Shown in pieces: positions 1-17,749 of a DNA stretch of 23,505 nucleotides. This DNA is from a virus (taxonomy: Duplodnaviria; Heunggongvirae; Uroviricota; Caudoviricetes): the IMG/VR virus record IMGVR_UViG_2925939204_000004, positions 1 to 23,505 of that record. The stretch is one strand, 5' to 3'. Below the pieces are notes generated by a model. The model was not told the DNA's origin. It did no database searches and saw nothing but the letters and a program-made list of their open reading frames with translations. The position numbers and the translations under genes are program-made. Positions within the stretch are counted from its first letter, which is position 1. Each line of letters starts with the position of its first letter.

Positions 1-141
1 TTACTGCTTACACTGTAAGAACGCCGCAAACTCCGCTCCCCAGAAGCTCATCCGTATTTCACACAGCGAACCGTGCAACATCCAGATGATGAGGATTGCC
101 GTCACGCAGAACGTGATGGCCGTAAGCGATTTTTGCGACAT
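1..141 (-). CDS. Hok/Gef-family type I toxin (46 aa)
   Basis: Minus-strand ORF, ATG at 139-141, TAA at 1-3. Translation MSQKSLTAITFCVTAILIIWMLHGSLCEIRMSFWGAEFAAFLQCKQ has one hydrophobic helix and the Hok-family C-V-T...S-L-C-E-I-R signature. AAGGAG lies 9 nt upstream. Gene ends at the window edge. Confidence 0.65.
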   Translation of the reverse strand: MSQKSLTAITFCVTAILIIWMLHGSLCEIRMSFWGAEFAAFLQCKQ

Positions 142-271
142 AGCACTTGCTCCTTTTCCGGAGAGGCGCTAACCTTTCACTTGTCAAGGTAATGCGGTTA
201 GGGCCTCGGTTAAACAGAGATGTTTTCCGGGGCCTTTCCACATCTGGCCTTCGGGTATTCCCTCCGACCAT
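59..271 (-). CDS. mok-like overlapping frame (70 codons) covering the hok start
   Basis: A 70-codon ORF with ATG at 269-271 overlaps the hok gene in another frame, as mok does in hok/sok loci. No clear SD and no similarity argument, so this rests on the overlap geometry alone. Confidence 0.3.
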   Translation of the reverse strand: MVGGNTRRPDVERPRKTSLFNRGPNRITLTSERLAPLRKRSKCYVAKIAYGHHVLRDGNPHHLDVARFAV

Positions 272-331
272 CAGCCGAAAGGCACCCGCGCGTAATCTAT
301 CGCTTTTTTGTTACTCCGGCAATTCTGCCTG

Positions 332-592
332 TTAATTCTGAGGTAAAGGCAAGCTCATCTGATTGTTTCCCCTGTGTGAAGCTGGCAGCTCATGCCACGG
401 GATACCTTCTGAAGAGTGGATGCCGGAGGCGTGTTTCGATGTGAATTTATGGAAAGCTTCCAGTGTTGAGAAGCATACGCCGCATTCCAGGTTGTTACAC
501 TGGTAATACTTTTGCCGCACGGTGTTTGAATCATTTTCCGGACGACTGGTGCGGATACGGGCAGATGCGCCACAAAGCGGACAACGGAACAT
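332..592 (-). CDS. ogr: Ogr/Delta-family zinc-finger late transcription activator
   Basis: Translation starts MFRCPLCGASARIRTSR...YYQCNNLECGVCFS, matching the CxxC...CxxC Ogr signature of P2. The ORF is 86 aa against about 72 for P2 Ogr, so the C-terminal end is uncertain. Confidence 0.8.
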   Translation of the reverse strand: MFRCPLCGASARIRTSRPENDSNTVRQKYYQCNNLECGVCFSTLEAFHKFTSKHASGIHSSEGIPWHELPASHRGNNQMSLPLPQN

Positions 593-741: not shown

Positions 742-1407
742 TCAATTTTTAAGAGCACTGATACAGAAAAATTGCATGACATTTTTCTTTATTGATTTAA
801 ATAAGCTAAACATTGTGACAGGTTCAAAGCTAGTTAACTCGATGAATTCCTCTCTCATTTGAGAAAGTAACAGCTGACGTACTGATTCAATTTCTGCTGT
901 TTGTTTTCTCAAATATCTTGAGAAAACAAGTAGTTCATCAGCTGTTTTGTTTTGGCCATTTATAAACGTAACAGGTTGCCCTGGCTTAGATATGAGAAAA
1001 AATTGGTTAATTTTATCAAGTAATGGTGGAATTATTTTTTTCCATTCAGCCCATTCTTTTTCACGATGAAACTCCAGACTGTGCTGACATGTTCTTAGTT
1101 GCTGTATATCAATCGCCCAGACCTCACTCTCATCGAGGCAATCTTTCCATTTGCTAATTACATTAATGTCAAATTTTTTGTTCGGTAGATAATTATCTTT
1201 GGCGTGCGCTTCCAGTATAGAGGCAAGAGTACCTGTATATTGCATCAAATTGGTAGATGCTCGGTTTACTAGCTCTGATATTCGATCTAGTTGAGTTGTT
1301 CTAATCTCAAGTGCTTTCTTTTTACGTTCATTTCGTAAAGCAAAATATGCAGCAAGGCAGACTGCAGCAACTGTGGCTGCTGGTGCGATAAAAATTTGCA
1401 TATTCAT
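742..1407 (-). CDS. AT-rich hypothetical membrane-anchored protein (cargo between D and ogr)
   Basis: ORF with AAGGA SD 8 nt before ATG at 1405-1407 (the internal Met of the tracked ORF). N-terminal hydrophobic helix MNMQIFIAPAATVAAVCLAAYFAL, then about 200 hydrophilic residues. GC content is visibly lower than in the flanking D and ogr genes. No family recognised. Confidence 0.5.
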   Translation of the reverse strand: MNMQIFIAPAATVAAVCLAAYFALRNERKKKALEIRTTQLDRISELVNRASTNLMQYTGTLASILEAHAKDNYLPNKKFDINVISKWKDCLDESEVWAIDIQQLRTCQHSLEFHREKEWAEWKKIIPPLLDKINQFFLISKPGQPVTFINGQNKTADELLVFSRYLRKQTAEIESVRQLLLSQMREEFIELTSFEPVTMFSLFKSIKKNVMQFFCISALKN

Positions 1408-1601
1408 AACATGGATCCTTTGACATGGCATTTATGGGGGCTATTTCAGCAGTAATCATTTGTGTGTAAATTTGTTTGCTACAAATTAACATATTCTAAT
1501 GTAAGGCTCTTCTGATTTTGACACCGGGTAGGCTGTCAGATTGGTTATGATTCTTGCTGTAAGCGCGTTAGCAAATGTCAGGGCTAATGCATCTAAGTTG
1601 T

Positions 1602-8540: not shown

Positions 8541-9719
8541 TTATAAAGAATTGCTACTTTCTAATTCTGGGTTTCTGGATCTATTTTTACAACCTAAATC
8601 CGAGTGGTAATTCGGTATATCGTTTGTCAAATCTTGTTTGATAGCATTAATTAAGATCATTATGTCGAATTTATGCATATCGTCGCCCCCTTCAGACCTT
8701 AGATGTTCGGATGTGGTGAGTTGAGTCGCTAATTTGCTGTTTGGCCCCCACACAATATTATTTTCGAATTTTCCTTCATGCATTCTGTTATTATATATAC
8801 AGTATTGTCTAATGTTTAATGCACTGGCTAAATGTACAATGGCAGTATCTACAGTTATAACAAAATCAGCATGGCGAACCAATGCAAATGAACATCCGGC
8901 ATCAGAAAATGGAGATAGAGACACATTATCCAATCCATTGTGATTAATCTGTTTTCCCATATTAAAAACTATTGTGTGATATCCCTTAAGGTTATTAAGG
9001 TAAGCTAGTACTTTGTTTATCTGTTCATCAGATAAGGTTCTGCTATTCTGAGAGCCATAAGGGTTAAATATAACTAATTTTTTGTTTTTCTTCCTGAATT
9101 CATTTGCAACAATATTTGCTGGTTCATATATTTTGTTGTCAAAATTAAGCGCTGCAGCATAATTATTATTTTTTATCTTTAGTAAAGATAAAACTTTTTT
9201 CATTCTTTCAGATGTGTGAATGGAACGATTATCGATTATATTTGTATCAAAAATAGTTACGGCAGGATGATTAAAACAGATAGAGTGTTTAGGTCTAAGT
9301 AAATGTAGTGTTTGCAATCTGGTTATCGCTGTGTTATCAAAATTTGAGAAGTCAACAACAAGATCTACATTCAGTTTTTTTATCTTTGCTTTTAGTTCGT
9401 TAAATTTATTTTTCTCGTAAGATATAAAGGCATCCACGCCAACAATATCAGTAAAGAGGAATGATACTCTTGAAGGTGCTATCACATATACCACCATACC
9501 GGATTTTTGAAGTTGTTTAATAAACCCTGAGGTAACGATGCCGTCACCAATGGCTTGCATGTGCATGAAAATGCACACTGTTTTATAACTATCCGGCTGT
9601 AATGATGTTTTCCTTCTGTATCGCATTTTTAGAAATGCCAGTCTGGCCTTCGTCTTTATCTTTTTTGTTTTAATATTTCGCTGTCTGTTAAGCTGTTTTA
9701 ATGATGAAATAACATTCAT
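8541..9719 (-). CDS. GT9-like (heptosyltransferase-fold) glycosyltransferase, AT-rich cargo
   Basis: Very AT-rich ORF. N-terminal VCIFMHMQAIGDGIV...VYVIAPS and C-terminal KKLVIFNPYGSQNSRTLSDEQ and ADFVITVDTAIVHLASALNI resemble GT9 motifs. Start uncertain: the tracked ORF begins at TTG 9779 and the ATG at 9719 has only a weak SD. Confidence 0.5.
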   Translation of the reverse strand: MNVISSLKQLNRQRNIKTKKIKTKARLAFLKMRYRRKTSLQPDSYKTVCIFMHMQAIGDGIVTSGFIKQLQKSGMVVYVIAPSRVSFLFTDIVGVDAFISYEKNKFNELKAKIKKLNVDLVVDFSNFDNTAITRLQTLHLLRPKHSICFNHPAVTIFDTNIIDNRSIHTSERMKKVLSLLKIKNNNYAAALNFDNKIYEPANIVANEFRKKNKKLVIFNPYGSQNSRTLSDEQINKVLAYLNNLKGYHTIVFNMGKQINHNGLDNVSLSPFSDAGCSFALVRHADFVITVDTAIVHLASALNIRQYCIYNNRMHEGKFENNIVWGPNSKLATQLTTSEHLRSEGGDDMHKFDIMILINAIKQDLTNDIPNYHSDLGCKNRSRNPELESSNSL

Positions 9720-9813
9720 AATGGTACCCTGAAATTCCAAATCACACATGTCATCCGAAATGAGCAGGGTACTATACAAAAAACTGGACTACAATGGTTT
9801 GAAATGAAAGCCT

Positions 9814-11504: not shown

Positions 11505-12467
11505 TTAATCGTCCGGATAAATGGTAATGACTTCACCGTCGTAAGTTGCTGCCGCCGCGAAAATATCCCCCGGAATTTCCTGAATGATATTCAGCCCTGT
11601 CATGTGGCGGCTGACCGGGCGGGCATCAGCAATCAACCGCTCCATTTCCAGATACATTTCCTCCGTCACGCCACTGTCCAGCGTGCCGACTTCAACGGTA
11701 AATGTTCCCGGTTCTCCGCCGAACTCCCACCACTCAGACACGCGAATGAGGTATCCCAGCGGCTCAATGGCCCGGCGCAGTGCGCTGATGGTTCCTTTGT
11801 GTCGGTGTATCAGCCATGCATCACGAATCACCTGTCGCTTTGTCTCTTCCGGCCAGTTGCGATCCCAGCGGTCAACGGAAAACGCCCAGGCGAGATAAGG
11901 CAGCAGATGCACCGGGCAGGTGTCCGGCGACCACAGCGTGTTGAGGTCTACCGGAATGTCTGTAACGTCCTGAAGCAGCTTGTTGGTGCTGAAGTTGGAC
12001 TCATCTGCGTGAGACGTGCCGTTGAAACCGATCATGATGCGGTCAAGCGCCACCTGCCGGGCAATCTGTGTGCTGACGCGTGACTGAAAATCAGGGTGTG
12101 CCGCCCAGGCATCAAGCTGCGGATACGAAATAAACGTGTCGTAGTTCACCTGTTCGCACTGATATTTACGGTTTTTCAGATCAACCACGTTATTCGGGTT
12201 ACGGCGTTTTGTGCCGTCATAACTGGTATTCGTGCGCGCAATCGGCCCGGTGGTGTCCAGGAGGATTTTTTCGCCTTTCTGGTCGGTCACACCGAACACG
12301 TTAATTTTTTTTGTAAATTCAGTGCTCTCCTTTACTGCGTTTTCAAAACGCTGCTGCACCGAGGGTTCCACGGTAAATCGCGATACCAGTGCAGATACCG
12401 GGATGTTGTTAAGCGACGCCTGCTGCGCCATATAGCAACCCAGCTTGTTGCGGGTAATATCTGACAT
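11505..12467 (-). CDS. Chimeric ORF: N-terminal half of major capsid protein gpN fused in frame to tail protein gpI (deletion remnant)
   Basis: Residues 1 to about 172 resemble gpN (FTVEPSV, RKYQCEQVNYDTFISYPQLDAWA, IMIGFNGT). From about 11965 downstream the protein resembles gpI (LWSPDTCPVHLLPYLAWAFSVDRWDRNWPEE, LGYLIRVSEWWE, MERLIADARPVSRH). Confidence 0.7.
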   Translation of the reverse strand: MSDITRNKLGCYMAQQASLNNIPVSALVSRFTVEPSVQQRFENAVKESTEFTKKINVFGVTDQKGEKILLDTTGPIARTNTSYDGTKRRNPNNVVDLKNRKYQCEQVNYDTFISYPQLDAWAAHPDFQSRVSTQIARQVALDRIMIGFNGTSHADESNFSTNKLLQDVTDIPVDLNTLWSPDTCPVHLLPYLAWAFSVDRWDRNWPEETKRQVIRDAWLIHRHKGTISALRRAIEPLGYLIRVSEWWEFGGEPGTFTVEVGTLDSGVTEEMYLEMERLIADARPVSRHMTGLNIIQEIPGDIFAAAATYDGEVITIYPDD

Positions 12468-12502
12468 CACCAGATTCATAAAAAATTTGCTCCTTTGTCT
12501 TA

Positions 12503-13499: not shown

Positions 13500-14105
13500 G
13501 TGCAGGATGGCAAGGATGCGTTCCAGTTTCGCCCTGGCAAAGTGTGCCACCTGATGAATCCTGACATTAACCAGGAAATCTACGGCATGCCGGAATATCT
13601 CGGCGCATTACTCTCGGCCAGCCTGTCTCATTCGGCGGACATGTTCAGAAAACTGTATTACGACAACGGATCCCACGCCGGGTGCATCATCTACATCGGT
13701 GCAGCGCAGGTAAACCGCGAAAGCATGGACTCCCTGAAAGAAACGCTACAGGGTGCACGTGGTGGCGGTGCGTTTAAAAACGTGCTCATTCATGCGCCCA
13801 ACGGGGGCAAAGAGGGGGTGCAAATTTTGCCGTTCCAGCAGATCACCGCAAAGGATGAGTTCATGAATGTTAAGGCGGCATCCCGTGATGATGTGCTGGC
13901 TGCGCACCGCGTTCCGCCGCAACTGATGGGGGCGATGCCGGGTGAAAAAAGTGCGTTTGGTGATGTGGAGAAGGCCGCGCGGGTTTACGCAATTAACGAG
14001 CTGATGCCCGTCATGGAGGCCATGAAGCACATCAATGACTGGCTTGGCGAAGAGGTGATCCGCTTTAACCCTTACGCACTGTTAGATACCCAGCCCACAT
14101 CCTGA
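13500..14105 (+). pseudogene. Portal protein (P2 gpQ family), C-terminal fragment of about 200 aa
   Basis: Contains PDINQEIYGMPEYL and RDDVLAAHRVPPQLMG portal motifs but begins with GTG only 160 bp from the divergent O start. There is no room for the N-terminal portal half or for the terminase gene P. Confidence 0.65.
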
Positions 14106-14638: not shown

Positions 14639-15157
14639 TCATTCGAAACTGGCAAGAATCTGTTCTCGAACAGAAGATTTCATCGTTAACCCACGATCTA
14701 GGAAAAATTGGAAATGCATTAAGGCTTGTTGTTTGTGTATAAGTCTCCTGCGCACAGCCTCTTGAAGTAGCCCTCCGTGGCGGGCGGCTTTTACACCGCG
14801 TTCCGCACACGTTTTATAAACCGCATTATCCGCCGAAAGACATGTTGCATCATGTATTCTCGCGTTAACAACGCAGCTTATGTCCGCATACTTCAATGCT
14901 CTCCTGCGATTTTTTATCTCAGCCATTTCAATAAAATGTTCAGGTTCGTAATCATTGGTGAAATTGTATGGAAGTTGCAGGCGTGTAAGCTGTTCCTGAA
15001 CATCAAGATTGTATTTAGCTTTTAGTTCCTCGCAGACATAGGGGTCAATCCACACACCACCCGGGTAAATTTGCCAGATAATATCTAAGCATTTACCTTC
15101 GTAAAAATCAGACAGTACATTCGTATCGATAACACATCTGGGGCATTCAAACGGCAT
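14639..15157 (-). CDS. PIN-like (VapC/DUF4411-like) putative nuclease; toxin or effector candidate
   Basis: Starts at ATG 15155-15157, overlapping the upstream gene's stop by 11 nt. N-terminus CVIDTNVLSDF with downstream acidic residues (CEELK, IHDATCLSADN) spaced as in PIN folds. AT-rich. Confidence 0.6.
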   Translation of the reverse strand: MPFECPRCVIDTNVLSDFYEGKCLDIIWQIYPGGVWIDPYVCEELKAKYNLDVQEQLTRLQLPYNFTNDYEPEHFIEMAEIKNRRRALKYADISCVVNARIHDATCLSADNAVYKTCAERGVKAARHGGLLQEAVRRRLIHKQQALMHFQFFLDRGLTMKSSVREQILASFE

Positions 15158-16292
15158 CCTCTCCGGCCTCCTGTTCGTCGTACCATTCATCCAGAAGATT
15201 GCTGAGAGCTTTTCTGTCTAATTCTAAAAGTTCAGATATGAAGGTTTCCGACGCGGAACCGGCTTCCCATGCTTTACGCGATAAGACGGTTAGGCGACCT
15301 TTATAATTTAGTGCTTCCCTAATGGGATTTGGCTCGTGTCTCTTCCAACCTTTACGATTGGCGGTTGCCCATAGGTATCTAGTGTTTTGTTGATTAATTA
15401 AATTACATTTACTAAGACGATCGATGATGCAAGTGGCTGATACTCTGAAAATGCTTTTTAGTCTAAGGACGGTTTCCTCATACGCCCATCCACCACCTTG
15501 CATGACGAATTGTTTTCGCAATGCGCTTTCTGGTACCAAAAAACAAGCAGCAAAGTGATTAGCAACTTTTTCTTCCGGTGAAATTGCTTTGCCATTAGTT
15601 TTATAGCTTTTAGCAGGGCCATGATACTCATCACGGTGGAAGATAAGATGAGCATATTCATGGCAAATACTGAAGATTTGACGTTCTATTGAAATGCTGT
15701 CGTGAACATTTACATAAATCGCGGTACCGTATTTGTTCGAAAACGCAGAAAATCCGAATACCATCCCTTTATCGGTTTCTTCGCGATTGAACGGGATTAC
15801 TCGAATATCCGATGCTTCCAAAATGGCTACAATGTCACCAACGCAAGTAGCGTTTCCTATACCAAGACGGAAACGTTCTTCCATAGCCTTATCTTCGACT
15901 CTTCGCAAATCTTCTGCTTTGGCGGTAAAAATAGGCATTGAGTTAGGAAGATCTTCTGGCAAATTAGCATCAGCAGCTTCCTCAATTGCATTGATATTTT
16001 TTAACTTTTCAATCAACTCATTGCGAAGTTTGGCATCCAACAAATCCGGACTATCTGCTCGCATTGCAAAACGAAACTCGCCATCATCTTGCTCATAAAA
16101 ATACCCGATAGGCTTATCGAAAATCTTGCAGAGCATGATGAGTTGGGTAACGCTTGGGACGCCTAACGCCTGCTCAAACTTACTGTAGGTTTGACGAACA
16201 ACACCGATCGCATCTGCGACGGCGCTTGCACTCATTCCCGCGTCGTTTCTGGCCTGAACCAAGCGTTCTGCTATACGCTGTTGAATGTTCAT
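15147..16292 (-). CDS. XRE-family HTH fused to an ImmA/IrrE-type (COG2856/M78) zinc metallopeptidase
   Basis: N-terminal HTH (QRIAERLVQARNDAGMSASAVADAIGVVRQTYSKFE) and an intact HEXXH motif in SICHEYAHLIFH. AGGTGA SD precedes the start. AT-rich. Confidence 0.7.
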   Translation of the reverse strand: MNIQQRIAERLVQARNDAGMSASAVADAIGVVRQTYSKFEQALGVPSVTQLIMLCKIFDKPIGYFYEQDDGEFRFAMRADSPDLLDAKLRNELIEKLKNINAIEEAADANLPEDLPNSMPIFTAKAEDLRRVEDKAMEERFRLGIGNATCVGDIVAILEASDIRVIPFNREETDKGMVFGFSAFSNKYGTAIYVNVHDSISIERQIFSICHEYAHLIFHRDEYHGPAKSYKTNGKAISPEEKVANHFAACFLVPESALRKQFVMQGGGWAYEETVLRLKSIFRVSATCIIDRLSKCNLINQQNTRYLWATANRKGWKRHEPNPIREALNYKGRLTVLSRKAWEAGSASETFISELLELDRKALSNLLDEWYDEQEAGEDAV

Positions 16293-16473: not shown

Positions 16474-16785
16474 TTACTCAGGAAATAGCGCCCGGATATT
16501 TCCGGCCATCTGACTGGTTATCTGTGCGGTTGGTACTGGCTGTGACACGGGGCGTTCTGTCCTGGTTTGTGTCACGGATAACGCCTCATCGTCAGCCCAT
16601 GCAGCCAGTCGGTAAGCCTCTGCCGGATTCATTTTCAGAAGTGCCAGCCCGGCCAGAAAAGCCACGCGTTGGCCGCTTTTGCGGGCTTCTGGTGTAAGGC
16701 TGTCCAGCCAGGCGCATGCTTCGCCTTCGTTCTTGACGGCGGCGGGCTTCAGATAGAAACTTATCCGTCTGGTTGGTGTCGTCAT
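16474..16785 (-). CDS. parR: ParR/StbB-like centromere-binding adaptor
   Basis: Start at ATG 16783-16785 with AAGGAG SD, 4 nt after the parM stop. N-terminus RRISFYLKPAAV...AWLDSLTPEARKSGQRVAFLAGLAL resembles the ParR ribbon-helix-helix region. Confidence 0.65.
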   Translation of the reverse strand: MTTPTRRISFYLKPAAVKNEGEACAWLDSLTPEARKSGQRVAFLAGLALLKMNPAEAYRLAAWADDEALSVTQTRTERPVSQPVPTAQITSQMAGNIRALFPE

Positions 16786-16789
16786 TGGT

Positions 16790-17749
16790 TTACTCCTTGT
16801 CCATTGCGTACAGCCCATTAACCAGAGCAAACTGTGGCACCCCGTCCGCGATGAAAGTCGCATTAACTCCGCAGGCTTCGCGGATAGCGGGTGCCACAAT
16901 CTCCGCCCCGCCACCGACAACCATCACCCGCCCGTAACCCGAAAAATCCGCCAGCGCGCGGATCACGCGTTGTTTCAGTGTTTCTTCCTTTTCACGAATA
17001 ACCGCCATCAGGCTGGCGTAATGCGCGTCATTGTGGATGTGCTGGCGCAGCCAGGCTTCATCATGGCGATGTTCGATAATGGTATTGGCGATGTGGTGAC
17101 TGGTGCGCATACCGTTAGTGGCCATCACCGACAGTACGGCATCGGCCATCAGAGAAACGCCTACGTGTGGATCGCAAAACACCTGGCTGATACCTGCCAG
17201 TTGCCCCTGAACCTTTGCCACATCCAGCGTGGTTCCGCCCAAATCCACAATCAGCAGGGATTCAAACGGACTCATGTCAGCCAGTGCCTTAAAGCCAGCC
17301 GGAATGGATTCAGGCATAACCCGCACGTTACGGATAGTGAATGCCTCACCGTTCTGGTACTCCACCGGGCGCATGACGTTCGCTTTTTTGCGGTTGATGT
17401 TGGCCATGTCCGGCTGTGCGTTTGTGTCGAAATATTCGCTCAGTGGCAGGGTGACAACCACATCCACCTCCTGTGGCGTGATGCCTGATTTGACCAGCGC
17501 GTGATGAATGGCAATGACATTCACATCGCTGTACTGGTATTGCGTGTCGGTCGTCTGGACAAAGCGATCGCTGACCGGATCAAAACCATAGCGCACGCCA
17601 TCAAGCATGTAGTTCGCGGGCTGCGTGCCACCGAACGGCGCAGACCATTCCGACTTGAAGCTGTTCGGGCTGATGGCGTTGCGGCGTTCGCCGTTCTCAG
17701 TCCATGCCAGCTTGATGTTGGTGGAGCCGTCATCGATACAAATTTTCAT
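16790..17749 (-). CDS. parM: ParM/StbA actin-like partition ATPase
   Basis: MKICIDDGSTNIKLAW...ISPNSFK...YQYSDVNVIAIHHAL...VMPESIPAG...LIVDLGGTTLD...VVGGGAE aligns along its length with plasmid R1 ParM from memory. Confidence 0.85.
   Translation of the reverse strand: MKICIDDGSTNIKLAWTENGERRNAISPNSFKSEWSAPFGGTQPANYMLDGVRYGFDPVSDRFVQTTDTQYQYSDVNVIAIHHALVKSGITPQEVDVVVTLPLSEYFDTNAQPDMANINRKKANVMRPVEYQNGEAFTIRNVRVMPESIPAGFKALADMSPFESLLIVDLGGTTLDVAKVQGQLAGISQVFCDPHVGVSLMADAVLSVMATNGMRTSHHIANTIIEHRHDEAWLRQHIHNDAHYASLMAVIREKEETLKQRVIRALADFSGYGRVMVVGGGAEIVAPAIREACGVNATFIADGVPQFALVNGLYAMDKE

What the first reader, a model, noticed from the sequence alone, without database searches (positions are those of the whole stretch)
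1..331. Hok-family toxin with a mok-like frame next to ogr; second plasmid-type stability module
Seen in sequence: a 46-aa Hok-signature peptide with strong SD and a 70-codon overlapping frame, directly beyond the 3' end of ogr. Established knowledge: hok/sok loci are type I toxin-antitoxin systems in which a plus-strand antisense RNA targets the mok leader; plasmid R1 carries both hok/sok and parMR. Inference: together with ParMR this points to plasmid-like ancestry or residence. The extended ogr ORF (86 aa) may overlap the hok leader region.
Basis: partly seen in the sequence, partly recalled or inferred. Interest (0 to 1): 0.5.

Follow-up and report, generated by a model that had tools for sequence, protein, structure and literature searches.

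The report
Hok/Sok-type toxin cassette in P2-like prophage
The first 330 bases hold a small membrane-toxin gene of the well-known Hok family with its RNA control region, a common, already annotated passenger of P88-type (P2-like) prophages of E. coli, so it is ordinary apart from lacking a conserved "mok" helper frame.

Summary
Window 1-141(-) encodes a 46-aa Hok/Gef peptide (Pfam above threshold), with an AAGGAG ribosome site, a 70-codon overlapping frame at 59-271(-), and ogr at 332-592(-).

It is a self-contained hok/sok-type type I toxin-antitoxin cassette:
- a hok promoter conserved in five unrelated contexts;
- a leader that matches the Rfam hok/sok model, though below its threshold;
- a 5' end that pairs either with a 3' element lying just outside the window or with an internal box;
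- a hairpin that locks the hok ribosome site;
- on the plus strand, a Sok-like promoter (TTGCTC-17-TAACCT, the same -10 hexamer as the annotated sokW) followed by a hairpin.

The 70-codon frame is not conserved: only 28 of 64 distinct intact alleles keep a read-through frame.

The cassette is not the studied hokW-sokW. It is a second, uncharacterised hok sub-family, also found beside lom in Stx phages and on an IncI1 plasmid.

This copy sits in a defective P88-like prophage integrated between ihfA and btuC. ParMR and hok are standard equipment of that integrating phage genus. Plasmid residence is therefore not supported here. ogr does not overlap the hok leader. Interest is low to moderate.

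The parts
1..141 (-). hok coding sequence (46 aa, stop codon at 1-3)
   Evidence: ORF list. Pfam HOK_GEF 29.9 bits, above the cut-off of 22. PHROG 251, 80.6 bits. RefSeq WP_000078916.1 'Hok/Gef family protein'. dN/dS 0.17-0.44.
150..155 (-). hok Shine-Dalgarno sequence AAGGAG, 8 nt before the ATG
   Evidence: Read directly from the sequence.
141..171 (-). Hairpin UAGCGCCUCUCC-GGAAAA-GGAGCAAGUGCUA that sequesters the hok ribosome site and reaches the start codon
   Evidence: Minimum-free-energy fold. Helix 8 is 95% paired across 15 alleles.
142..287 (-). hok mRNA 5' leader
   Evidence: Rfam RF01794 matches 287-128(-) at 48.4 bits, E 2e-9, full model length but below the gathering score of 59. 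It is the most conserved part of the 15-allele alignment.
273..287 (-). tac-like 5' end GGGUGCCUUUCGGCU. It pairs either with the 3' fbi element (outside the window) or with the internal box at 227-241.
   Evidence: 15-bp 5'-3' helix in the fold, 92% paired across alleles with wobble-preserving changes. The alternative 5' hairpin appears in the consensus fold.
227..241 (-). ucb-like box GUGGAAAGGCCCCGG, the alternative partner of tac. In the closed fold it pairs with CCGAGGCC.
   Evidence: RNAalifold pairs columns 24-38 with 71-84, nearly invariant. Fold.
202..209 (-). CCGAGGCC, a GAGG box at the place of the mok ribosome site. It is conserved but not followed by a conserved start codon.
   Evidence: Alignment A1. 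Frame analysis. Rfam alignments of the window and of hokW.
59..271 (-). 70-codon frame overlapping hok ('mok-like'). It is open in this allele but not conserved.
   Evidence: ORF list. No family match in Pfam, NCBIfam or PHROGs. Broken in close relatives. Only 28 of 64 distinct alleles read through. dN/dS 0.7-2.2 in this frame.
185..193 (-). AUU (193-191) and UUG (187-185), both in the read-through frame. AUU sits at the position that aligns with the mokW AUG. These are the only plausible leader starts in this allele.
   Evidence: Start list. Rfam alignments. L258 annotation. UUG is replaced by UAA in many alleles.
294..322 (-). hok promoter: -35 TTGCCG (322-317), 17-nt spacer, -10 TAGATT (299-294), start at G287
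   Evidence: Phylogenetic footprint: both hexamers and their spacing are kept in five unrelated upstream contexts while the spacer sequence diverges. The promoter falls below the 9-of-12 threshold of the consensus scanner.
147..175 (+). Sok-like antisense promoter: -35 TTGCTC (147-152), 17-nt spacer, -10 TAACCT (170-175)
   Evidence: Conserved in 14 of 15 alleles. It has the same -10 hexamer, spacing and position as the promoter of the annotated sokW of phage 933W, TTGCCT-17-TAACCT. Mutating the -10 region of sokW abolished antitoxin activity (PMC8621323).
182..238 (+). Predicted Sok-like antisense RNA of about 57 nt: a variable 5' tail (182-200), a conserved hairpin (201-234), then UUU
   Evidence: Fold z-score -4.3. 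The lower stem is invariant and the upper stem and tail vary across 12 alleles. The ends are placed by homology with the sokW annotation. No expression data are available.
332..592 (-). ogr (late-gene activator, 86 aa), immediately upstream of the hok promoter with no terminator between them
   Evidence: Pfam Ogr_Delta 52.4 bits. RefSeq annotation. The terminator scan finds nothing between ogr and hok. An ogr-like ORF lies upstream of 85 of 120 viral-contig cassettes.

Best explanation
This is a complete hok/sok-type type I toxin-antitoxin cassette of about 430 bp, from promoter to terminator. It is carried as an accessory gene at the ogr end of a P88-like (Peduoviridae) prophage.

Shown by sequence and comparison:
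- hok has its own promoter, with the transcript starting at 287.
- The roughly 400-nt hok mRNA folds into a closed form. Its 5' end (tac, 273-287) pairs with a 3' element (AAGGCACCC, 56-64 nt beyond the window start).
- The hok ribosome site and the base of the start codon are locked in an 11-bp hairpin.
- The same 5' end can instead pair with an internal box at 227-241.
- On the plus strand, a promoter identical in its -10 hexamer and spacing to that of sokW would give an antisense RNA of about 57 nt (182-238). This RNA is complementary to the leader.

Inferred from the R1 hok/sok and hokW-sokW models:
- The stable hok mRNA is made continuously but stays inert.
- Slow 3' trimming removes the fold-back element and the 5' end switches partner, making the leader accessible.
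- Short-lived Sok binds the leader and the duplex is destroyed.
- If Sok synthesis stops, Hok is translated and the 46-aa peptide depolarises the inner membrane. Sok synthesis could stop through loss of the element, or through transcription shut-off during phage attack or prophage induction.

This sub-family differs from R1 in having no conserved mok reading frame. Any coupling must therefore rest on ribosomes entering the leader at weak or variable starts, or on RNA refolding alone.

The likely benefits are retention of the prophage, lysis help on induction, or exclusion of other phages. The data do not say which.
For: Toxin:
- Pfam HOK_GEF is above threshold and PHROG 251 matches.
- hok is under purifying selection and intact in 64 of 65 cassettes.

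RNA:
- Rfam RF01794 matches over its full length at E 2e-9.
- The predicted full-length mRNA folds at -173.9 kcal/mol, z-score -6.6, with a 15-bp 5'-3' helix.
- On 15 alleles, 86% of cells are paired against 36-43% for the slid controls. 25 pairs change on both sides, and 0 of 500 shuffles reach that number.
- The consensus fold contains the alternative tac-ucb hairpin.

Promoters:
- The hok promoter hexamers are conserved in five unrelated contexts.
- The Sok promoter and hairpin are conserved and correspond to the annotated sokW, which was shown experimentally to be an antitoxin (PMC8621323).

Cassette behaviour:
- The same unit occurs in P2-like phages, beside lom in Stx phages, on an IncI1 plasmid and at chromosomal sites. 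Homology ends at the promoter on one side and just past the fold-back element on the other.
Against: - No expression or toxicity data exist for this sub-family. I found no paper on it.
- The Rfam score is below the gathering threshold: 48.4 against 59, and 35.6-50.5 in sister alleles. The genuine hokW leader scores 113.5.
- Both promoters are weak by consensus (6 and 8 matches of 12) and the scanner missed them.
- The Sok promoter overlaps structural elements of the hok mRNA, so its conservation is not independent evidence.
- Sok has no canonical terminator.
- mok translation is essential in R1 (PMC9841398), but the frame is not conserved here. Either regulation differs or many alleles are translationally silent.
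Confidence: 0.85

Rival explanations
1. The locus is a silent relic. The hok gene and its RNA scaffold persist but are no longer translated, as reported for the five hok loci of E. coli K-12. It is carried passively by the prophage.
For: No conserved mok frame or start codon: 22 of 64 distinct alleles have no upstream ORF reaching the hok hairpin. The Rfam score is sub-threshold. This copy sits in a degraded prophage with a capsid-gpI fusion ORF and a truncated portal gene.
Against: hok is intact in 64 of 65 distinct cassettes and under purifying selection. Both promoters, the 5'-3' helix and the ribosome-site hairpin are conserved across four kinds of genetic context. No IS or rearrangement disrupts it here. 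The cassette is present in plaque-forming phages such as P88, Chuche and phiSM.
Confidence: 0.1
2. The cassette is mainly a phage lysis or late-function accessory rather than an addiction module. Read-through from ogr, or loss of Sok on induction, releases Hok and speeds host killing and phage release, as shown for hokW-sokW of Sp5.
For: There is no terminator between ogr and the hok promoter, so transcripts of the late-gene activator can run into hok. ogr-hok synteny is conserved in 85 of 120 viral-contig cassettes and in at least 1157 E. coli genomes. For the related hokW-sokW, deletion halves phage release and delays growth arrest (PMC8621323).
Against: hok keeps its own promoter in every context, including non-phage ones. 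The same cassette works equally as a unit on an IncI1 plasmid and at chromosomal sites. The copy here is in a prophage that can no longer make particles.
Confidence: 0.3
3. One reading: hok/sok together with ParMR marks a plasmid-like ancestry, or an extrachromosomal (plasmid-prophage) way of life, for this element.
For: ParM (275 and 232 bits to the two ParM domains) and a ParR-like gene lie beside replication gene A. The hok cassette has an 86%-identical copy on an IncI1 plasmid. A complete P88-like genome is deposited as a 34.5-kb circular 'plasmid'.
Against: The window is integrated between ihfA and btuC on the chromosome, and it is identical in several chromosomes. All P88-like phages with ParM and hok also carry an integrase, a C repressor and cox. 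P88 was induced from a chromosome and phiSM integrates into a chromosomal gene. The closest hok relatives are mostly in phages and chromosomes. The circular record may simply be an excised replicating form.
Confidence: 0.12

Closest known systems
Unnamed hok cassette beside lom in Stx phages (933W AF125520 45491-45865; VT2-Sakai/Sp5 44532-44906)
   Same: Same sub-family: 80.6% nucleotide identity from promoter to fold-back element. It has a 46-aa Hok (MSQKSLITVT...), the same 5' end GGGTGCCTTTCGG, the same ribosome-site hairpin and the same TAACCT antisense -10 hexamer.
   Different: It lies in lambdoid phages downstream of lom, not next to ogr. The Sok 5' tail and upper hairpin differ, which suggests a different antisense specificity. 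A 1-nt insertion gives a better -35 (TTGACT) and shifts the leader frames. It is unannotated in AF125520 and uncharacterised.
hokW-mokW-sokW of phage 933W/Sp5 (experimentally a type I TA system; PMC8621323)
   Same: A prophage-borne hok/sok locus with the same leader architecture, matched by the same Rfam model in the same orientation. The antisense promoter has the same -10 hexamer TAACCT and a 17-nt spacer at the homologous place.
   Different: It is a different locus and a different toxin: 51 aa, MKQQKAM...DYESEK, of the RelF/HokD type. It scores 113.5 bits with Rfam against 48.4 here. It has an AUG-initiated mok of 70 codons, in frame with hok. The window has AUU at that position and no conserved frame.
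hok/sok (parB) of plasmid R1
   Same: The toxin family (39% identity over the core). The same elements are present: a tac-fbi 5'-3' closure, an alternative tac-ucb pairing, a sequestered ribosome site, and a cis-antisense RNA made of a single-stranded tail plus a hairpin. The R1 model is as summarised in PMC9841398.
   Different: R1 needs translation of a 70-codon mok that starts at an AUG. Here no such frame is conserved. The leader is about 27 nt shorter and Hok is 46 rather than 52 aa. The host element is an integrating phage, not a plasmid.
Chromosomal hok loci of E. coli (hokA-E, hokX)
   Same: The Hok/Gef family. The best NCBIfam match is HokA. Copies of the window's sub-family also occur at chromosomal sites, for example next to ykgM and serS.
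   Different: The score is far below the HokA equivalog cut-off (34 against 89 bits), so it is not an orthologue of any named K-12 locus. It is not interrupted by IS elements.

Membership tests
Hok/Gef toxin family (Pfam PF01848) | Profile match above the curated threshold | tested here: met
   29.9 bits against a cut-off of 22, residues 7-44 on profile positions 5-42 of 42. PHROG 251 gives 80.6 bits.
Hok/Gef toxin family (Pfam PF01848) | A peptide of about 50 aa with a hydrophobic N-terminal helix, a conserved (S/D)LCE(I/V/F)R motif and a C-terminal E(V/F)AAF motif | tested here: met
   The sequence reads ...ILIIWMLHGSLCEIRMSFWGAEFAAFL... and aligns to R1 Hok over these motifs. The motifs are conserved in 12 alleles.
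Hok/Gef toxin family (Pfam PF01848) | Kills or arrests cells by damaging the inner membrane | not testable with these tools
   No experiment on this sub-family was found.
hok/sok-type type I toxin-antitoxin locus (R1 parB type) | Long-range pairing of the mRNA 5' end (tac) with a 3' fold-back element (fbi) | tested here: met
   A 15-bp helix forms between 273-287 and AAGGCACCC..GGUCGA, 56-71 nt beyond the window start. It is 92% paired in 15 alleles, with G-U/G-C and U-G/U-A changes that keep pairing.
hok/sok-type type I toxin-antitoxin locus (R1 parB type) | An alternative pairing of the 5' end with an internal box (tac-ucb), which gives a refolding switch | tested here: met
   The consensus fold pairs columns 24-38 with 71-84 (window 273-287 with 227-241), nearly invariant. 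There is almost no covariation because both sides are invariant.
hok/sok-type type I toxin-antitoxin locus (R1 parB type) | A cis-encoded antisense RNA (Sok) with its own promoter inside the leader | tested here: inconclusive
   TTGCTC-17-TAACCT and a conserved hairpin sit at the position homologous to the annotated sokW. Against this, the promoter matches only 6 of 12 consensus positions, the scanner missed it, it overlaps structural RNA elements, and no transcript data exist.
hok/sok-type type I toxin-antitoxin locus (R1 parB type) | [quoted passage not shown] | tested here: not met
   The frame is open in this allele (59-271), but only 28 of 64 distinct alleles have a read-through ORF. Close relatives have stops and no start codon. 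The position of the mokW AUG is AUU here.
Rfam RF01794 ('sok', in fact the hok leader in mRNA sense) | Score at or above the gathering threshold of 59 bits | tested here: not met
   48.4 bits, E 2e-9, over the full model length. Sister alleles score 35.6-50.5. The genuine hokW leader scores 113.5.
NCBIfam HokA equivalog / Hok subfamily | Score above the curated cut-off | tested here: not met
   HokA scores 34 bits against 89. The Hok subfamily model scores 21.6 bits against 73.
hokW-sokW of Sp5/933W (orthologue) | Same locus and same toxin as the characterised system | tested here: not met
   The primers in PMC8621323 define a 51-aa toxin, MKQQKAM...DYESEK. That locus is at 933W 58460-58734, whereas the window's relative is at 45491-45865.

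The most novel reading that the evidence does not exclude
P88-like Peduoviridae may be facultative phage-plasmids. On this reading, the constant pairing of ParMR with a hok/sok cassette exists to segregate and enforce an episomal prophage state alongside integration. A related, milder novelty is that this hok sub-family may work without any mok frame, so that Sok and RNA refolding alone gate the hok ribosome site.
Probability: 0.15. Interest if true: 0.6.

Novelty: new member of a known kind. Interest (0 to 1): 0.27.

Why it matters
The toxin gene is already annotated ('Hok/Gef family protein', 'MokW-like host killing'), so its presence is no surprise.

Three modest points are new:
- The ogr-hok pair is carried by about a fifth of complete E. 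coli genomes, yet this 46-aa sub-family has never been studied. Phage annotation names conflate it with hokW.
- It keeps every RNA hallmark of hok/sok except a conserved mok frame. That makes it a natural test case for whether leader translation is really obligatory in the family.
- The current Rfam and NCBIfam thresholds miss it.

Practically, prophage boundaries drawn on gene calls, as in this window, cut off the fold-back element and the terminator of the cassette.

Tried and rejected
1. I first took the cassette for the characterised hokW-sokW, because of the 'MokW-like' annotation and 83% identity to Stx phages. The paper's primers and the map position showed that hokW is a different locus, so I dropped this.
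2. The consensus promoter scan found no promoter in the region. I replaced it with phylogenetic footprints.
I used a 25-nt degenerate pattern on viral contigs instead.
4. I considered the ATG at 271 as the mok start and rejected it. It is 17 nt from the 5' end, lies inside tac, has no ribosome site, and is ACG in two alleles.
5. I looked for a conserved leader ORF starting at GAUGUGG (238-244). The motif is invariant, but indels shuffle the downstream frame. It is also the pairing partner of tac, so it is not convincing as a start.
6. Literature searches for hok in P2-like or P88 phages found nothing.
7. PADLOC has no model that matches Hok.

Full report
**Observation**

Window 1-141 on the minus strand is a 46-codon ORF whose stop codon is bases 1-3. 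Its product, MSQKSLTAITFCVTAILIIWMLHGSLCEIRMSFWGAEFAAFLQCKQ, matches Pfam HOK_GEF at 29.9 bits (cut-off 22) and PHROG 251 at 80.6 bits. It falls below the NCBIfam HokA and Hok cut-offs. AAGGAG lies 8 nt before the ATG. A 70-codon ATG frame spans 59-271(-) and has no family match. The 86-aa Ogr/Delta zinc-finger gene is at 332-592(-).

**Where it comes from**

- The first 700 bp are 100% identical to many E. coli chromosomes, and at least 1157 of 5426 complete genomes hold 80% or more of it.
- The whole window is a P2-like prophage lying between ihfA and btuC.
- In all E. coli, conservation stops about 42 nt after ihfA, so hok is on the prophage side of the junction.
- Related complete phages (P88, Chuche, phiSM, PhiR44_2; genus Xuanwuvirus) have the order D - ogr - hok - (com/methylase) - int - C - cox.
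- The prophage in the window is defective. It has a capsid-N::gpI fusion ORF at 11505-12479 and a truncated portal gene.
- The window starts exactly at the hok stop codon, so the hok 3' UTR is missing. I read it from the identical strain 165 (L001).

**The hok mRNA**

- Rfam RF01794 ('sok') matches 287-128(-) over its whole length at 48.4 bits, E 2e-9, below the gathering score of 59. The model lies in the hok-mRNA sense and ends at the hok AUG, so it describes the leader rather than Sok itself.
- As a control, the genuine hokW leader of 933W scores 113.5 bits on the hok-sense strand, with sokW annotated opposite it. Sister alleles of the window's cassette score 35.6-50.5 bits.
- The predicted 404-nt transcript (window 287 to 113 nt before base 1) folds at -173.9 kcal/mol, z-score -6.6. 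A 15-bp helix joins the 5' end, GGGUGCCUUUCGGCU, to GGUCGAUAAGGCACCC in the 3' UTR, and a terminator follows.

I aligned 15 alleles from P2-like phages, Stx phages, an IncI1 plasmid and chromosomal sites.
- 86% of cells are paired, against 36-43% when partners are slid.
- 25 pairs change on both sides, and 0 of 500 shuffles reach that number.
- The 5'-3' helix is 92% paired.
- The hairpin enclosing the hok ribosome site is 95% paired.
- RNAalifold also finds the alternative hairpin, in which the same 5' end pairs with GUGGAAAGGCCCC (227-241).

Two competing partners for the 5' end, together with a locked ribosome site, are the core of the R1 refolding model (PMC9841398).

**Promoters**

The consensus scanner found none. 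However, TTGCCG-17-TAGATT-6-G(287) recurs as TTGCC/TTGCG/TTGAA-17-TA(A/C/G)A(T/A)T in five unrelated upstream contexts, while the spacer sequence diverges.

On the plus strand, TTGCTC(147-152)-17-TAACCT(170-175) is conserved. In Stx-phage alleles it is TTGACT with an 18-nt spacer. In 933W, the annotated 71-nt sokW is preceded by TTGCCT-17-TAACCT, with the start 7 nt after the hexamer. Mutating that -10 region abolished antitoxin activity (PMC8621323).

By homology, Sok here would run from 182 to about 238:
- a 5' tail that varies between alleles;
- a hairpin with an invariant lower stem (201-234);
- then UUU.

There are no transcript data, and the promoter overlaps structural RNA elements. I therefore rate Sok as likely but unproven.

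**The mok-like frame**

The frame is open here, but it is closed in alleles 92-96% identical to this one. Chuche, pZ1323 and STEC411 have stops and no start codon, and indels in the Sok-target region reshuffle the frames.

| Class, among 64 distinct intact cassettes from viral contigs | Number |
|---|---|
| An ORF reads through the hok start | 28 |
| An ORF stops at the foot of the ribosome-site hairpin | 14 |
| Neither | 22 |

- hok itself is intact in 64 of 65 cassettes.
- dN/dS is 0.17-0.44 in the hok frame and 0.7-2.2 in the overlapping frame.
- The ATG at 271 sits inside tac and has no ribosome site.
- The position that aligns with the mokW AUG is AUU (193-191), and UUG (187-185) is also in frame. 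In many alleles UAA replaces the UUG.

A conserved mok, which is essential in R1, is therefore not a feature of this sub-family.

**Identity**

Phage pipelines call the protein 'MokW-like'. The primers in Takada et al. define hokW as a 51-aa toxin, MKQQKAM...DYESEK, with a different leader. That locus is at 933W 58460-58734, whereas the window's relative lies beside lom at 45491-45865 and is unannotated. The window's cassette thus belongs to a second, uncharacterised 46-aa sub-family, found in E. coli, Shigella, Salmonella and Klebsiella. I found no paper on it.

**The cassette as a unit**

Homology between contexts runs from the hok promoter to just past the fold-back element. An IncI1 plasmid carries it at 86% identity upstream of trbA. 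Other copies lie next to ykgM and serS, and some are tandem.

- ParM is 99% identical in every P88-like phage, and these phages also carry an integrase, C and cox. P88 was induced from a chromosome and phiSM integrates. This copy is chromosomal. So hok plus ParMR is standard equipment of the genus, not evidence that this element lives as a plasmid.
- One complete P88-like genome is deposited as a 34.5-kb circular 'plasmid'. A facultative episomal state is therefore not excluded.
- ogr ends at 332, 9 nt before the hok -35 hexamer and 44 nt before the transcript start. It does not overlap the leader. No terminator separates the two genes, so ogr transcripts may read into hok.

**Mechanism and role**

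Most likely (0.85) this is a working hok/sok-type module, as set out in the best explanation. Its benefit cannot be decided from sequence. The candidates are prophage retention, lysis help on induction (as for hokW-sokW), or exclusion of other phages.

**Verdict**

This is a correct identification of an already annotated gene family. It is a new, divergent member with one real deviation, the lack of a conserved mok frame. Interest is low to moderate.

Noticed in passing
window 11505-12479 (-), with 13500-14105: One ORF joins the N-terminal half of the P2 major capsid protein to the C-terminal part of tail protein gpI, and the portal gene is truncated. An internal deletion has removed the head-completion, lysis and baseplate genes, so the prophage is defective.
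   Followed up: partly
window 14639-15190 (-) and 15147-16292 (-): A PIN-domain protein overlaps an HTH + M78 peptidase protein that matches PADLOC RmrA at 119.6 bits. This is a RosmerTA-like anti-phage pair lying between the truncated portal gene and parMR/gene A.
   Followed up: partly
window 742-1431 (-): A 229-aa AT-rich ORF between ogr and gpD has no match in Pfam, NCBIfam, PHROGs or PADLOC. In other strains an IS element is inserted at this ORF (IS3 family in strain 165, IS1 in AR_0128). It is absent from Chuche and P88, where D directly precedes ogr.
   Followed up: partly
window 8541-9779 (-): A glycosyltransferase family 9 (heptosyltransferase-like) gene lies between gpU and the tail-fibre assembly gene. 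It may be an LPS-modifying accessory gene.
   Followed up: no
window 16474-17749 (-): ParM and a ParR-like gene lie next to replication gene A. ParM is 99% identical in all P88-like (Xuanwuvirus) phages and 48% identical to StbA of the 91-kb phage D6.
   Followed up: partly
L004 1501-1875 and L258 653-927 (phage 933W): Stx phages carry two unrelated hok loci: the annotated hokW/mokW/sokW and an unannotated 46-aa hok beside lom. Phage pipelines label the second one 'MokW-like host killing', which invites confusion.
   Followed up: yes
window 128-287 (-); L258 603-777: Rfam RF01794, named 'sok antitoxin', matches the hok-mRNA sense strand and ends at the hok AUG. Its hits therefore mark the hok leader, and the Sok gene is on the opposite strand inside the hit.
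   Followed up: yes
L014 89-229 and 563-703; L153, L223, L252: Some chromosomes and viral contigs carry two copies of this hok cassette in tandem, about 470-720 bp apart, with different Hok sequences.
   Followed up: no
L143, L151, L167, L184, L191, L199, L208, L212, L213 (match at 263-287): Many IMG/VR provirus contigs begin exactly at the hok stop codon, as this window does. Gene-call-based prophage boundaries therefore systematically cut off the fold-back element and the terminator of the cassette.
   Followed up: no
A1 columns 405-420; L001 5925-5910: Just after the fold-back element, the P2-like cassettes keep ATGAACAACAAA. This resembles the start of gene L0129 (ATGAACGATAAA), which follows the cassette in Stx phages. 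It hints that the cassette moved together with a stub of its neighbour.
   Followed up: no
L257 (NZ_CP148288.1, whole record): A complete P88-like phage genome, with hok, parMR, gene A and integrase, is deposited as a 34,461-bp circular non-mobilizable 'plasmid'. It could be an excised replicative form or an episomal prophage.
   Followed up: no
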